From Catajapyx aquilonaris (taxonomy: Eukaryota), in contig JYFJ02000049.1 of NCBI GenBank assembly GCA_000934665.2, forward strand, positions 1 to 64,000: a stretch of DNA of 64,000 nt, in the 5' to 3' direction. The position numbers and the translations under genes are program-made. The notes beneath the pieces were generated by a model that worked only from the letters and a program-made list of their open reading frames with translations, ran no database searches and was not told the origin of the DNA. Positions 6,301-15,174 of the stretch are shown here, in pieces (the stretch's first letter is position 1; each line of letters starts with the position of its first letter).

Positions 6301-9300
6301 AATTTAAGTTATCTTCTAAACTGCTGAAATGATGATTAAACCAAGTCCTACCTTTCCACGATGAGTACGAATACCCTTCCACAGAGGCTTCAGTACAGAA
6401 TCAAAGCTCTCAATGCCGTATGGTGTAGCCGCTTCAGCCAGGGCAGCAATAGCCAAGGCAGTGATAGTGCGAACCTTCTGTTGTTCATCCACCAAACCTG
6501 AAGTAAAATTTTTAAAATTATTAAAACCAGCACTCAAACTACATCTCTCATTTAAGTGATAACAGTTTAACAAAATGATTATGTTTTCAACATATTTAAA
6601 AAATCTTACCATGCTCAATGATCTCAACCAGATTCTTGAGATGTGGTAGAATAGCACACCCCATAAGGATGGCAATCTGCTGCACAATCTTTATGCCTGT
6701 GTGTCTGGCCTGCCACGACTTTTTACTGCGACAAACAGCTTTCAGGAAGGGCAAAAGAGAAGGGATTCCCAGAGCAGAGGCTACCACTGCAAAGGCCCTG
6801 GCTGTCGTGTTCCGTACATATTCATCAATGTTGTCAATGTCAGGGCGCATGGTGGAGATCATAGTGGCCAGGCCTGCCGCCTTAGCCAAGTTGGAAATAA
6901 TCTCACGACCCTCCACACGGGCATAGTAGTCTTCATCAATCAGAAGAGGTTCAATCACCACCAAGATCTAAAAAATAAAGAGGTTTTCATTATTTCATCA
7001 GAAATCACCCTCAAAAATGTTGACGAGACGAAACTGAAGGCTAATCCACAAACCCACTATTATTTGTCGAGACAGCACTAAAGGTTTTTACACAAGCATG
7101 TTGTTAGTCCAAATGACATCAAAACTGGTTTGGAATCACCCTCAAAAATGTTGACGAGACGAAACTGAAGGCTAATCCACAAACCCACTATTATTTGACG
7201 AGACAGCACTAAAGGTTTTTACACAAGCCTGTTGTTAGTCCAAATGACATCAAAACTGGTTTGAAAAACATTAGCCCTAGGTAAATGAAAGAAGAACCAA
7301 CCTTGTGCACATACGGCCGCACCAGGTCATCAAGCTTGTACAGAATTCGGTCAATGACTTTGACCAACAAATGTCTTTCTTGATCCTCAAGTGTGGGAGA
7401 CATGAGAAGAGGCAAGATCTGATTGAAAAGTGGTCCGGCTCCAAATTCTCTGGCTTTGTCAGTGATCTGCCTAAGGGCAGCCTTGCGCATAGGTGGTGTC
7501 CCATTCTTTATCTTCAGCAGGAGCTTCATAATCTTGCGCTCTTTCTGCTCCTCTGGAGATAGAGACTCCTCATCCACATCCACTAAAAGCTTGTCAAAAT
7601 ACTGAGCGTCTTCTGGCTTCAGAAATGGTAGGTTGCCCTTGGGCTGTGCCTCCATATATTTAGACTGTTTATCTTCCTGCTGCATGAAGAAGCCTGTTGG
7701 GGTGCCAGCAATAGGTGTTGGAGTTGCTGTCAGCTTACGGGCTGGAGTTCGGATTGGGATGTAGCCTGAAAAACGATTTTAACAATTAGTCAGTACCAAC
7801 ATTACACATCATTTATGAAACTTGGCTATTTAATATGGGCACTTACCGGCAGGAGGTTGCAATATCTTGTATCCAGGTGGAAACATGGCGTCAAGCTCCT
7901 CATCTGATAATGGTCTGTTGCGTTCATCTATCTCCCTCTCCCATCGGTATGCCTGCAGCTGCTCAGGTGTCATGGTGAGCAAGTGACCTGGAAATCAAGA
8001 ACAAATGAGTTTGTACTTGCCAAATGAATAAAATTCTGCATACAATTTATTTATTTTTTGTTTTTTTGTTGTTGTTTTTTGAAAATTGAGCTGGCATAAA
8101 TTCTCCTTTTTGTATGTTTCCCTAACAAAATTAAGTTGTGAAATTGAATCAGCAATGCTGATTTAAAAATTACACTCACTGCACCTTTGAAAACAATTTG
8201 TTAAAACTCTTTGATTGGAATAGAACGTTGACAAGCAAATGTTACGACCATTTGTAAAATTATATTTTAAAATTTGTACTTCGTGTTCCTTTATTACAAA
8301 AGTCCCATCTTGCAACTCACTTGGTGTTGGTGTGGCCATAGCCATAGCTTTCTGGCCGGTGGGGGTGACACCACTTGGAGTCATCATGCTGGGGGTGTGT
8401 GGTGTCCCAGGGGTTTGCGGGGTCATCCCAGGAGTCATCTGGCTGACTGGGGTCTCATCCCAACGGCTGCGTCTCTTGCTAGCAGATGGAGTTGGAGTTT
8501 CCTGGATCAGGTCACCGCCTCCTCTGTCAGTTCGAGGTGTCTCTGCCCAACCACTGTTGTGGCCAGGGGTCTCTGTAATAGTATCACATTAGACTCTAAC
8601 ACTAATCAAAAATTACGTAGCTAAAATATGCTACATGGTATAGTGCATAATTGAAAGTAAATTCAGAACAAGTGGTTGACACTTGTTATTGGTAACAATG
8701 TTCGATTAATGAACAATTAGGATGAACACCGTGTTTGAGATTTACAAGCAATCACACAACCCAGGCTTAAATACAAAATAATTGTAATCATTGAGGTTTC
8801 CCTTTTCTTAATATTGGACATCCTGCAAGACTCGCTCCCATTCCTGAAGGTCCATTAAAACTTAATTCTCTCCCCCCAATCTAATTGACAGCCATGTCAA
8901 ACTCAATTACATTACTAAGTTGCACCTCGAGTACAAAAACCAAACAATCAAAGGCTTACCTCGTTCAGTCTTTGGTGTCTCGTCCCATCTGTTCCTCCTG
9001 GAAGAAGAGGCTGCTGCCTTGTCATGACCTGGAGTGGCATGACCTGGTGTTGCCTGGCCTGGGGTCAGGTGACCTGGTGTGGGTTCCCACATGCGAGTTG
9101 ACACGCCAGGAGTGGCACCAGGTGTTTCTCCACCCTTCCCGTGACCAGGAGTTTCATCCCATCGTGAATGGGCAGGTGTCTGTAATCAACATAAAAAATC
9201 ATTTCAATATTTTATGAAGCTGCCTCTCACTAAGCACATACAGAATTCACATTCCCTCCATTCACCACACAATATCCACTACATATTGATCTGCATTATT

Positions 9301-12300
9301 ATCTATACACATAACTGTTTCCATTCACACCTTTTTTCAATGAAAGAAAAATGGCTATAGGGAAACTTACATCAGCAGTTTCCCAAGTACTCTTCTTCTT
9401 TGAAGGGGGTACCTCCTCAGCTGTCTGATCCCACCTTCTTCCCCTCTTCGGGGCGGCTTTTGCGACCTCACCGTTGCTCACTGACTTCAAAGTTCCATCC
9501 TTCGCTTTTTCTACTAGCTTTTTGCGCAACTATAAAGAGAAATCATGAATGTTAGATAATGTATAAAATTAAAAACTGCAGATAAGATCAATTTCAAGTA
9601 GGCTTACCTGTGCCGCTTCCTCCTCCAACATTTTCTCTCGCATAATTTCTGGAAAGCTCCTGGAGTGCAAATCTGGGGTCTTCCCACCTGGAATGATAAA
9701 AGGGAGGTCACGCCAAAGCGTGGTGATTAGCATCTGGTCTGACACTGATTCCCTAACTGCCAACAATGGCCACGGGGATATTTCTTTTTTTTTGTTGCTG
9801 CTTCATTTGCATCTACTTGTCACCTTAATGGTGTTCACTTCAAATTATTTTTTTCAGCATTTAGTCAGAGCATGACTAAAAAATTTACATTCAAAAAATT
9901 ATTTCTTTTGGTTTATGAAAATGTTAGCAGCATTCTTGACTTGAGCATGTATACCTACATTGAAACCCAGAGCTATTTAAAAGGCCAGTTTTCTGAAGAA
10001 GGTGCCAATCACGATAATGCATACTCTTTTATGCCAAAATCTTGCCCTGCAAAATTAATGTCTCACTTGGCAAAACAACCCTTTCAAAAAACTGATCTTT
10101 TTTCCTTGATACATACGTGTCTTCATCTTCACCACAGTTCTGCAAGGATTGCACTAAAATCCTCCAGTCATCATCCTATTGGACCTAGAAATAATCTGTC
10201 TGATTAAAAATATGTATGCTGCTCACAATCACACACACACTCACTACCTCTAAACCTTGTCTCTTTTCATGCCTTTTCCGTAGTTCCTTACCAAAAACTG
10301 GCTACGTACGACTTCATGACTTTTCCACTATCTCATAGTCAACAAGCTGAACTTCAGTTACAGCATGAACGATAATATGCCACTTGAGCTTACAAACGTT
10401 TACTTTGCCTCTAATAAACTAGTGGCATATAAATGCAGCTATTTTTTTGTCTTTCAAAATACTCTCATTTATGTTTGTACTTTTTGTGCTGCAATAATCC
10501 ACGATTCCACGTAGAGCCACTTCGCTGTAGGAATTCCTCGAGGGGAGAAAAATTGAAGGGCGATTAGTAAAGGTGATCCAGGTATCCACCCAACCCCATA
10601 TTCAAGAGAGACCCACCCTTGCTACCCTTTCTAGTTTACTGCCTTTTATTTATTAAAGTTAACTGTTCTTTATATCATAGGGTTTTCCTGAAAGGCTTTT
10701 TAAAATCTTTACTGAACTGTGCAATTTAGATTCCTTCGCACTCTCACTATGAACTTGGATGCTTAGGGTTGGGTGATACCGAGCACTTCCAATGTCTGTT
10801 GCTTGAATGGTTGATGATAGCGTGCAAAGAAATTTTTACACGTGCATATCACCCAGCCCTAATTCTAGTTTCAAATTACTCATTCCATTTACTGGTTTAA
10901 ACCTAACCATCCCAATCATTCTCGCCAATCACTCATTCCTTGCATACATAATTCCTGAGCACCAACATATAGGTATGAGATGGGTGGCATTGTACATACA
11001 CTGTACTCCCGATTATCCGGGTGTGGATTATCCATGTTTCAGATTATCCGTGCATGGCTAGAACAAAGAGAAGTCTGCAAAAATGTCAATTCTTCTCCCA
11101 AACTAAGAAATATAAGACTTTTCCAGCCTAAAAATCTATGGAGATTTTTCTAATTTTGAATCGATCTTATTTAAACGAAATACAGTATGTACAGTTATTC
11201 ATTTAAAGCCTGCGAATAGCGCCTTTTACGGCATCTAGGACCATTTTCCGATCATCCGTGTTTTCCAATTAATTATCTGGTGACACCCGTGCAGCCATTA
11301 GCCCAGATAATTGGGAGTAGAGTGTACTGCTTGCAAGGAGGCATAATACAGTATCATTACTCCACAATCACACCTGTGGTAATGCATAGGGCCACCAATC
11401 TCAGTCCACCTAGAGCAGCAAGGCAGCACCAATTTCCCACCTGCTTGCGTGACACACACGTGCCCTGCTGCTCCAATATCAGTCAAACCATCTTATAAAT
11501 AAGTGTGCTAATAATACAGAGAGCAGCGCAAATGAGGGTGATACCCTTGAACTGTACCTTCTGCAAATGGATCAATCCGTTCGGGAGAGATCATCATGTG
11601 GCGCCTGCGGGCTCGGTACTCGTCCTCTCGCTCCGCTATGGTGGGGCGCCTGTGCTCCATGAACGGGTCGTAGTCTTTTTCAGGCTGGTGAAACAAAGTC
11701 AAAATATTATTACCTGCATTAATAACGCTATGCACACTTCACATTTTTGGAATGGGGCTTACCTGTGGGATGTCATTCAGGATGGATGCTGGTGCTGTGT
11801 AGCCAGGTCTTCTTTGTGGACCCAGCAGTGGTGTTTCATCTCCTTCCTGCATAACAAACATACAATGAGCAACTACTAACAACATAATTATTGTTTCATA
11901 GCATGTGTTGAACTAAGAACAGAAATTTCTGACATTACACAATTAACAATGAAATAACATGAGCATCTGAGATCCTGAATATCATCATTTGTTGCACCTG
12001 GTGCTTCCCTGAAGTCTCTTATCAGTCAGTAGGTCGGCTGACATCCTTCCATTGTTGTGTGTACCACAAATAATGCATTGACTATGAACTTCCAACCCAA
12101 AGCTAATAAAGTACCGAATTTTACGCCATATAAGACGCACAGGCATATAAGAAGCACACAAATTTCAGTAGATCATATTCAGGGGAAAAGGTTTTTAGTC
12201 TATTTTTGCATATTTGACGCAGGTCAATTTTTGAGCCATTTTTGGGGGAAAAAGGGCGTCTTATATGCCGTCAAATACAATAATAGCTATAACTGGCAGA

Positions 12301-12996: not shown

Positions 12997-13463
12997 TTTG
13001 TTCGACGATTTTTAGACGAATGCTGCCGCAGAAAGAGGATCAGAGAGGGAGCAGGGGAGCCAACAGGAGAGGAGGGGAAGCCCACGCTCCATGCATGTGG
13101 CGCCTCCTTCTGCGGATCACGGTGGAACTACATGAATTGCCACTTTTTGTGTCACCAACAAGCACTGAAATTTAATAAATAAAATTGTAATCACATTTTG
13201 TACACCAAATTAGTAATTAGACTACTTGTGATACACTTGAAAAGTTGGCTACCCTGTCATCTGCATTAGGAATGAAAATAAAAGATGGCGTCACATTCGC
13301 CGTGAAAATTTACTAAAAAATTGTCGAAATTTTAGTGCTAATTTTGCTTTGGGCGTCTAAATTTTCAAGGTGTTTTCGTCATGCTTAGGTCATACCGGGT
13401 GCAATGTAAATTTAGAAGTAATGAGGCGTCATAATTACGTAATTTGACGGTATTTAAAAAAAA
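12997..13463. promoter_or_regulatory. Putative bidirectional promoter shared by SF3B1 and COQ10
   Basis: 467 bp separate the divergent ATGs. YY1/Pho-like AANATGGCG motifs overlap both start codons, with another near 13282. Confidence 0.65.
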
Positions 13464-14466
13464 ATGGCGAGATGGCGACAAATTTTGGGTCTGCGACTGA
13501 TCACATGGAGGACCCCTCTTCTTCCAGGCGAAGGAGCACACACTTGGTAATTTCAGCTTTTAAAAATATATATATTCATAAATAATTAGACTTGGGCATG
13601 GACATATGAGTGAGGAAGGGAAAAAGACATTACATAAAGTTATGCAATACCATGAACTCATGTGACCCCAATGTAAGCTTGGTAAATATGTATCTGCAAT
13701 TTCCCAACCTTTACTGCCTAATCAGGGCCTAATTGTAAGTGGGATCATTATGTTAATAGGATTAAACAGTTATTTCATAACAATATATTCGGTAAGACAC
13801 TAATTTTTAATTGTCTGTTTGGCAGGACTTGCGTTCAGGTTTTCAACAGCAGCACAACTAGTCAGAGATGTTCCTTTTTCACCATATCAGGGATCGGAAA
13901 CAGGAGGAAGGAGTATGCAGAACGACGACTCATTGGGTGCGGCACATCTCACAGCAATTGCAATATCATTAATAATGGCAAATAATTAACATGCCTCATG
14001 TTGCAGGTACAGCATGGAGCAGATGTATGACCTGGTGGCAAGAGTGGAAGACTACCACAAATTCGTCCCGTGGTGCAAACGCTCAGTGGTGACCTTCCGC
14101 AGTCCAACCCTGCTGAAGGGTGACATCCAAATAGGTTTTCCTCCCCTCTTGGAGAGCTACACCTCCAGAGTGACACTCGTCCACCCCAATCTGATACGTG
14201 CTGTGTGCACAGATGGACGCCTCTTCAACCACCTGCAGACAGACTGGAAGTTCAGCCCAGGAATCAAGTCAAATGATCTGACCTGCACGCTGGACTTCTC
14301 CATTGCTTTTGAGTTCAAATCAGTCTTGCACTCCCACCTTGCACATGTGTTCTTTAACGAGGTCGTAAGGCAGATGGTCAATGCCTTCCTCACTGAGGCG
14401 AGACGTAAATATGGGAAAGAGTCCATCAAGAGTCAGAAACCCACGGTATTAACAGTAGCATCCTGA
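13464..14466 (+). CDS. COQ10: Coenzyme Q-binding protein COQ10 (START domain), 3 coding exons
   Basis: Exons 13464-13546, 13826-~13937 and 14007-14466 splice in frame. An Arg-rich mitochondrial-presequence-like N-terminus is followed by [35 protein letters not shown]...[20 protein letters not shown]. Confidence 0.95.
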
Positions 14467-15174
14467 CGACAACTGTAATTATCCTCAGACCTCAATGTTG
14501 TATTTATTTGGAATTTTACCCACAAAAGCCTATCTATTTTGATGCCAGCATCTACAATGTTCATTAAAAAATCATTATCTAGTAGCAACAATGTGTTGGA
14601 AATATATTTCAAACCCATCTCTCTCAACAGCATCCAGGCACGTCAGGTGGACAGTGTCACCCAAAATTGGGCAGCCAAGTTGGGGTGATTGTTGTGCCGT
14701 GTTCAAGTAAACTGCTGTGACTCCTCAGTAATGAGTGACCAATTGAATGGCCCAAGTTCAGCAGGGGTAGAAAAAAGTACGGTTGCATAATACGTTTCAG
14801 CAAATTATAGCGTTCATTACTGATCATGGGCAATAATTGATGTAATCCTGAAGTGGCCATAACAACAGTAATAATAAATAAACAGTGTCAATTCCATCCA
14901 AAAATTAACTTTCACTTTAAATTGTCATCACAGACTGAAGCCGTCATTTCTGGAGTCATTTATTTATACTGTGGGTGATAGTTTGTGGTATGATCATTAC
15001 ACCATTTTCAGTCCAAATAACTAAAGCCCATCTTGGCACCCCTTTCACTGTTGTCATCTGCAACAATGGAGACTTCTGTTGATTCCCCTTTTTTTCCTAC
15101 CCAACATCATATTCTCCATTGGGTAGGATGTGGTAAATTCCCACACCATAAAACAACAAAAATAATCTGTGAAA

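What the first reader, a model, noticed from the sequence alone, without database searches (positions are those of the whole stretch)
10117..10184. Candidate poison exon A in SF3B1 intron 4
Seen: intron 9688-11557 is the longest SF3B1 intron (1870 nt) and interrupts ...[13 protein letters not shown]. It contains tttctag|GTCCAATAGGATGATGA...GAAGATGAAGACAC|gtatgt (68 nt), which reads G-P-I-G-stop-stop in the incoming phase and carries a GAAGA-type enhancer. Established (recalled, to be verified): human SF3B1 has a short isoform that diverges after DPFADG at this same junction, and poison exons autoregulate many splicing factors. Inference: an ancient AS-NMD autoregulatory switch in a core U2 snRNP gene, shared between this invertebrate and vertebrates.
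Basis: partly seen in the sequence, partly recalled or inferred. Interest (0 to 1): 0.75.

Follow-up and report, generated by a model that had tools for sequence, protein, structure and literature searches.

The report
Ancient decoy exon in arthropod SF3B1
The longest intron of an arthropod's gene for the core splicing protein SF3B1 hides a 68-base stop-codon mini-exon whose splice signals recur in the same intron of distant invertebrates and resemble a known human "decoy" exon, so it likely acts as a very old brake that keeps part of the gene's RNA unspliced or marks it for destruction.

Summary
Confirmed at the stated coordinates: a 68-nt AG...GT segment in SF3B1 intron 4 (1870 nt, phase 1) reading G-P-I-G-stop-stop. 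From the window alone this is unremarkable: its sites are weak, and 94% of AG...GT pairs in the intron give a stop or frameshift. Orthologues make it real. A 49-97 nt cassette with the same acceptor type and a GTA(C/T/G)GTAT donor lies in intron 4 of water-flea-, cockroach- and annelid-like loci (25 of 33 complete, redundant introns). GTACGTAT is the top motif found without the window and is exactly the donor of human decoy exon E4e. A model trained on other animals ranks this segment first of 7199 pairs. The exon interior and the GAAGA motif are not conserved. One transcript assembly holds the 3' 1.37 kb of intron 4 unspliced and no inclusion junction. Best reading: the counterpart of E4e, likely promoting intron retention, with inclusion and decay as a minor outlet. 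Autoregulation is untested. The system is known in vertebrates; I found no paper extending it to protostomes, but this scan noted it before in at least three other invertebrate genomes.

The parts
11558..11684 (-). SF3B1 exon 4 (ends DPFAE-G, phase 1)
   Evidence: open reading frame; spliced joints in run X1
9688..11557 (-). SF3B1 intron 4, 1870 nt, longest intron of the gene; spliced out whole in one contig and held unspliced (9688-11056) in two others
10117..10184 (-). Cassette A, 68 nt; likely counterpart of human decoy exon E4e; interior not conserved
10185..10216 (-). Acceptor region of A: candidate branch TTAAT (10207-10203, inferred), competing AGs ending at 10200 and 10196, short A-interrupted pyrimidine tract, TAG|G
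   Evidence: sequence; ranks 1 of 4137 minus-strand AGs with the model trained on other animals
10109..10119 (-). Donor of A, CAC|GTATGTAT: non-G at -1, 7 of 8 intron-side matches to the U1 complement; one base from the human E4e intron-side 8-mer
10168..10173 (-). Two in-frame TGA stops in the incoming phase
10519..10596 (-). Element B: TACTAAT branch motif (10569-10563), pyrimidine tract and three AGs (ending 10537, 10525, 10520); conserved 3' splice signal without a conserved donor; possible counterpart of human E4d (inferred from order and acceptor type)
   Evidence: best match to the cockroach-like intron L006, score 72 against a shuffle maximum of 49; similar signals 438-478 nt upstream of the cassette in L006, L019, L076
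10996..11326 (-). Dispersed repeat of about 330 nt inserted in intron 4; not part of the conserved system
   Evidence: 45 matches in the own genome among 40 scored of 751 candidates
9608..9687 (-). SF3B1 exon 5 (starts GKTPD)

Best explanation
The 68-nt segment has splice signals conserved in SF3B1 intron 4 of distant animals and is likely the arthropod counterpart of the human decoy exon E4e, a brake that likely lowers SF3B1 output mostly by keeping intron 4 unspliced and sometimes by being included. Shown: position, stops, conservation of acceptor and donor but not of the interior, and unspliced intron 4 in one transcript assembly. Inferred from the human system: U2 and U1 bind its weak acceptor and its unusual donor (good U1 pairing on the intron side, non-G at -1), these compete with the true ends of intron 4, and the result is usually a retained intron. 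When the cassette is spliced in, the stop after codon 142 would leave 12 downstream junctions and over 3.4 kb of untranslated RNA and would trigger NMD. Element B upstream likely adds a second decoy 3' site.
For: (1) Same intron position as human: vertebrate short proteins diverge after DPFAD with GFYSAA-type and AVLL-type tails; the GFYSAA tail matches the start of E4e in the paper's figure. (2) With the window excluded, GTACGTAT is the top 8-mer in 14 orthologous introns, 7 of 14 against 0.22 expected, Bonferroni 8e-6 (two of the 7 are related annelid-like loci); it equals the intron side of the human E4e donor given by the morpholino in PMC7373989. (3) A model trained on 10 non-window cassettes ranks 10184-10117 first of 7199 pairs in the 64 kb window (29.1 bits, next 20.9); 0 of 1000 shuffled introns reach it. 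(4) Model-free alignment to the cockroach-like intron L006 gives two collinear blocks, B (72) and A (54); maximum 49 in 300 shuffles and 46 in 64 real control tiles. (5) The cassette is in 25 of 33 complete introns. (6) Run X1 is spliced and without listed differences; two contigs hold intron 4 from 11056 into exon 5 while introns 3 and 5 are joined across, the pattern reported for human SF3B1.
Against: No junction into or out of A in X1 (contigs drop rare forms), and 0 of 191 protein tails match a predicted invertebrate cassette peptide of 5 or more residues, so use of the sites in an invertebrate is not shown. The interior matches no other cassette (p 0.2-0.8, 10 of 10), and unguided 100-nt tile alignments rank A tiles only 7th to 10th. 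The cassette was not found in 8 of 33 complete introns: three 166-167 nt wasp-like, three coral-like, L059 (acceptor only) and L071. The training cassettes were picked with a donor pattern that included the window's variant, so searches are partly circular. Retention rests on one run of unrecorded library type, and retention could come from B rather than A. The human comparison was by eye, on a figure whose text extracts in reversed pieces.
Confidence: 0.7

Rival explanations
1. Classical autoregulatory poison exon: excess SF3B1 promotes inclusion of A, the transcript is destroyed by NMD, and retention is only a by-product.
For: All 28 non-window cassettes listed carry a stop (26) or shift the frame (2), including 4 of 4 whose length is a multiple of three. 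In human, E4b and E4e together account for about 30% of exon 4 and exon 5 junction reads after NMD block (PMC6097662). Insect short isoforms begin their tail with A, D or V, which cannot come from reading into a GT intron (Aedes, Culex, wasps), so internal acceptors appear to be used in insects.
Against: A stop or frameshift is the default (682 of 726 pairs). Human experiments show E4e promoting retention (26% to 3% with a donor-blocking morpholino, PMC7373989). X1 shows retention and no inclusion. No paper on SF3B1 feedback was found. The insect tails cannot be assigned to A.
Confidence: 0.2
2. Chance pseudo-exon, or convergent motifs without shared ancestry.
For: Weak sites by a generic model, unconserved interior, absence in several lineages; GTAYGT is also an ordinary donor class, and the motif occurs 12 times in 147,094 bases outside intron 4 of the loci (29 times in 70,981 inside; redundant loci).
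Against: Top de novo motif without the window, identity with the human donor, collinear A and B blocks with L006, acceptor rank 1 of 4137.
Confidence: 0.05
3. A is an alternative last exon giving a stable 142-aa protein, or part of an intronic non-coding RNA (C/D snoRNA-like).
For: Vertebrate databases list short GFYSAA-type isoforms. A weak Rfam match to sR2 covers A (20.7 bits, gathering score 42, E 0.092).
Against: The only A(A/T)TAAA on this strand of intron 4 lies upstream of A, at 10654; a contig reads through A into exon 5; the donor is the best-conserved feature; the encoded tails differ in every lineage; the Rfam score is far below threshold.
Confidence: 0.05

Closest known systems
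Human SF3B1 intron 4 decoy exon E4e (Parra et al. 2018, PMC6097662; Parra et al. 2020, PMC7373989)
   Same: Same gene and intron position, similar intron size (1.8 kb), short stop-bearing cassette (56 nt against 68 nt), TTTCTAG|G acceptor, intron-side donor GTACGTAT against GTATGTAT here (exact in 7 of 14 other invertebrate introns), non-G at -1, an upstream conserved acceptor in the same order (E4d and B), intron 4 retained while introns 3 and 5 are spliced.
   Different: Reported conservation reaches fish (lamprey aligns weakly in the figure); here the host is a pancrustacean. Vertebrate exons are ultraconserved inside, whereas invertebrate interiors have diverged and vary from 49 to 97 nt. 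Six human cassettes against two clear elements and one doubtful one here. No functional or binding data here.
Poison exons of splicing factors (regulated unproductive splicing; RBM39 in PMC10477243, listing only; review PMC11062102, passages)
   Same: Conserved stop-bearing cassette in an intron of a splicing-factor gene; predicted NMD on inclusion.
   Different: Inclusion and feedback by the gene's own product are not shown; retention is the outcome seen.
Decoy exons of OGT, ARGLU1, DDX39B and SNRNP70 (described in PMC6097662)
   Same: Cryptic cassette inside a retained intron longer than 1 kb, with competing splice sites nearby.
   Different: Other genes; no homology tested.

Membership tests
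SF3B1 intron 4 decoy exon E4e (orthologue) | Lies in the intron after DPFA(D/E)-G, phase 1 | tested here: met
SF3B1 intron 4 decoy exon E4e (orthologue) | Conserved cryptic 3' and 5' splice sites of the E4e type | tested here: met
   human donor; human acceptor compared by eye
SF3B1 intron 4 decoy exon E4e (orthologue) | Exon interior conserved as in vertebrates | tested here: not met
   0 of 10 invertebrate interiors match the window; an 8-nt match to the human interior was seen by eye and not scored
Decoy exon | Non-coding: introduces a premature stop | tested here: met
   (weak as evidence)
Decoy exon | Host intron longer than 1 kb and selectively retained | tested here: inconclusive
   unspliced 3' 1.37 kb in one contig set; single run, no quantitation
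Decoy exon | Rare junctions to exons 4 and 5, raised by NMD inhibition | tested here: inconclusive
   none in X1 contigs; no raw reads or NMD-blocked data available
Decoy exon | Removing or blocking its splice sites lowers retention; U2AF binds its acceptor | not testable with these tools
   needs minigene, antisense or CLIP experiments
Autoregulatory poison exon | Inclusion responds to the level of the gene's own product | not testable with these tools
   no data here; no paper found
Autoregulatory poison exon | Stop more than 50-55 nt upstream of a downstream junction, or a long 3' UTR | tested here: met
   54 nt to the next junction, 3407 nt to the last
C/D box snoRNA | Rfam score at the gathering threshold | tested here: not met
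   20.7 bits against 42

The most novel reading that the evidence does not exclude
SF3B1 intron 4 carries a two-part sensor (a strong-branch decoy acceptor B and a weak-acceptor, stalled-donor cassette A) inherited from the last common ancestor of bilaterians, by which the level of U2/SF3b sets how much SF3B1 RNA is detained or destroyed; only the splice signals, not the exon, have been kept for over half a billion years.
Probability: 0.3. Interest if true: 0.7.

Novelty: new member of a known kind. Interest (0 to 1): 0.5.

Why it matters
Non-coding elements traceable between vertebrates and protostomes are rare (general knowledge). The human SF3B1 decoy was described in blood-cell precursors and traced to fish; finding its signals in arthropod- and annelid-like genes would make it a general, ancient control on a core spliceosome subunit. 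The divergence is also informative: it shows which letters matter (branch and acceptor, the donor with non-G at -1 and GTAT at +5 to +8) and which do not (the interior). That gives direct mutations to test how a decoy site stalls splicing, a point both papers leave open, and lineages that lost it (the 167-nt intron) serve as natural controls.

Tried and rejected
Sequencing runs: no RNA holder listed (one run, X1, kind not on record). The 5' part of intron 4 beyond the repeat (11372-11537) has no cover in X1; this says nothing either way. Genome and viral contig scans found no SF3B1 loci (0 of 221 and 0 of 68 stretches). Of 80 metagenome loci, 58 gave a usable intron start and 33 a complete intron; 22 were dropped (motif not found, no intron at this position, or no GT). 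Whole-intron alignment to the window exceeded all 20 shuffles clearly only for L006, slightly for L017 and L033 at other places, of 29 loci tried. A long-range pairing between A and 10721-10704 is no better than shuffles (30 of 40 as good): rejected. Rfam sR2 and mir-15 matches are far below threshold: rejected. GAAGA enhancer: 1 of 10 cassettes: rejected as a conserved feature. Short-protein tails gave no exon 4-A product in an invertebrate (0 of 191). The first pattern search failed because it had one T too many (corrected; the pattern was post hoc and is not used as evidence). The tree of N-terminal pieces places the window among pancrustaceans at 84/87 only, and leaves L025 unplaced. Eight literature searches found no report of this element in invertebrates; subscription papers are mostly not covered. 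Supplementary Table 2 of PMC6097662 could not be read (too large); it lists human cassettes.

Full report
Observation. The gene model on the minus strand has 16 exons and gives an open 1308-aa SF3B1. Intron 4 (11557-9688, 1870 nt, phase 1) is the longest; about 330 nt of it is a dispersed repeat, while 9990-10620 is single-copy. The 68-nt segment 10184-10117 is as described and reads G-P-I-G-stop-stop. Taken alone this is ordinary: by a model of the gene's own splice sites the acceptor ranks 33 of 132 and the donor 20 of 114 in the intron, 682 of 726 AG...GT pairs give a stop or frameshift, and 72 of 726 contain GAAGA. The host groups with pancrustaceans in a tree of N-terminal pieces, with modest support (84/87).

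Known system. Parra et al. 2018 (PMC6097662; I read parts 1-4 of 6 of the text, Supplementary Table 1 whole, and parts 1, 4 and 5 of 6 plus a term search of Supplementary Figure S1) describe six conserved cryptic exons, E4a-E4f (29-56 nt), in the 1.8 kb human SF3B1 intron 4. They promote retention of that intron, E4e most strongly, and are conserved to fish (E4d, E4e). Parra et al. 2020 (PMC7373989; parts 1-3 of 5 and two term searches) cut retention from about 26% to 3% by blocking the E4e donor; the morpholino gives that donor's intron side as GTACGTAT. PMC11062102 was seen as passages; all other papers as search listings only.

Conservation. A scan of metagenome contigs with an exon 4 alignment gave 80 loci; 58 had a usable intron start and 33 a complete intron 4, 17 of them closely related annelid-like contigs. 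Unguided alignment to the cockroach-like L006 gave two collinear blocks: 10596-10519 (element B, score 72) and 10240-10088 (cassette A, score 54), against a maximum of 49 in 300 shuffles and 46 in 64 real tiles. Of 29 loci aligned, only L006 gave such a clear match. With the window left out, the most over-represented 8-mer in 14 introns was GTACGTAT (7 of 14, expected 0.22, Bonferroni 8e-6), the human E4e donor. Upstream of that donor or its variants lies a YAG|G acceptor at 49-97 nt in 25 of 33 complete introns (24 by the rule, plus L017 at 49 nt) and in four partial ones: water-flea-like, cockroach-like, annelid-like, and the less certain L017, L019, L025 and L076. It was not found in three wasp-like 166-167 nt introns, three coral-like introns, L059 (acceptor only) or L071. 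A model from 10 of these cassettes ranks 10184-10117 first of 7199 pairs in the window (29.1 bits against 20.9), its acceptor first of 4137 and its donor second of 3938; 0 of 1000 shuffled introns reach the score. This test and the leave-one-group-out version (first in 11 of 11 introns) are partly circular, because the training set was picked with a donor pattern that covered the window's variant; searches are not. The interior is not conserved, GAAGA occurs in 1 of 10 cassettes, and unguided tile alignments do not single A out (ranks 7-10). Selection has therefore acted on the splice signals, not on the exon sequence.

Transcripts. Only one public run holds the region. Laid on 9380-11850 it shows joints that skip introns 3, 4 and 5 and no listed differences, so it is RNA-derived and from this species or a very close one. 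Two contigs without mismatches cover 10490-11056 and 9660-10502, the latter running from the intron into exon 5. No joint enters or leaves A. These are contigs: they show that unspliced intron 4 RNA is present, cannot quantify it, and drop rare forms; short low-depth introns could also be pruned by the assembler (my knowledge), which weakens introns 3 and 5 as controls. Annotated short isoforms of Aedes, Culex and wasps have tails starting with A, D or V, which require splicing of exon 4 to an acceptor other than exon 5's; they cannot be assigned to A, and none of 191 tails matches a predicted cassette peptide.

Mechanism. Shown: position, stops, conserved weak acceptor and atypical donor, a second conserved 3' signal (B) 385 nt upstream, and unspliced intron 4. 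Inferred from the human work: the cryptic sites engage U2 and U1 and compete with the intron's ends, giving retention; occasional inclusion gives NMD, since the stop lies 54 nt before the next junction and 3407 nt before the last. The donor matches the U1 complement at 7 of 8 intron positions but has C at -1, which fits a site that binds well and splices poorly; that reading is mine and untested. Whether SF3B1 senses its own level here is unknown; neither paper tests it in the parts I read, the 2020 text has no occurrence of 'autoregulat', and searches found nothing. I put 0.7 on the dual decoy/poison reading with retention as the main outcome, 0.2 on a classical autoregulatory poison exon, 0.05 on chance or convergence and 0.05 on a last exon or small RNA.

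Novelty. The system is known in vertebrates. Eight searches found no paper that extends it to protostomes, within a library that lacks most subscription journals. Earlier notes of this scan report the same element in at least three other invertebrate genomes and a shark; I saw them after and they are not independent support. Verdict: a real, conserved element and a new member of a known kind; interest 0.5.

Noticed in passing
window 10519-10596 (-): Element B: perfect-type branch motif, pyrimidine tract and three close AGs; the best-conserved block against L006. All three acceptors lead to stops if read on (and direct reading). No conserved donor found. Coral-like L026 and L041 have a similar acceptor in a 98%-identical stretch against roughly 85-90% for most of the intron, though the match to the window is not above shuffles.
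   Followed up: partly
window 9959-10046 (-): A second cassette-like pair downstream of A (88 nt, stop-bearing; 19.9 bits, 4th of 7199 pairs). Only L033 shows a similar donor near the 3' end. Possible third decoy, or chance.
   Followed up: partly
window 10185-10200 (-): Two extra AGs lie 11 and 15 nt upstream of A's acceptor; the one opening at 10199 is the best generic acceptor in the intron and is in frame with the same stops. An upstream AG within 14 nt occurs in 7 of 10 orthologous acceptors (strings; post hoc, untested).
   Followed up: no
window 10996-11326: Dispersed repeat of about 330 nt with many copies in the genome, possibly a MITE; the transcript contigs break at it.
   Followed up: partly
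L002-L005, intron 4 about 90-100 nt upstream of the cassette: Water-flea-like introns share a strong internal donor (G|GTGAGTAA) upstream of the cassette, suggesting a further cryptic exon in that lineage.
   Followed up: no
L013-L015: Wasp-like loci have a 166-167 nt intron 4 without the cassette, whereas other wasps have annotated alternative tails at this junction (P0024, P0028, P0029): probable lineage-specific loss.
   Followed up: no
window 7043-7239 (-), SF3B1 intron 10: A direct duplication of roughly 120 nt inside intron 10, seen by eye.
   Followed up: no
window about 13000-14500: A gene on the opposite strand appears to start within about 500 nt of the SF3B1 start codon (head-to-head); its reading frame looks like a START-domain, COQ10-type protein (recalled, not tested).
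   Followed up: no
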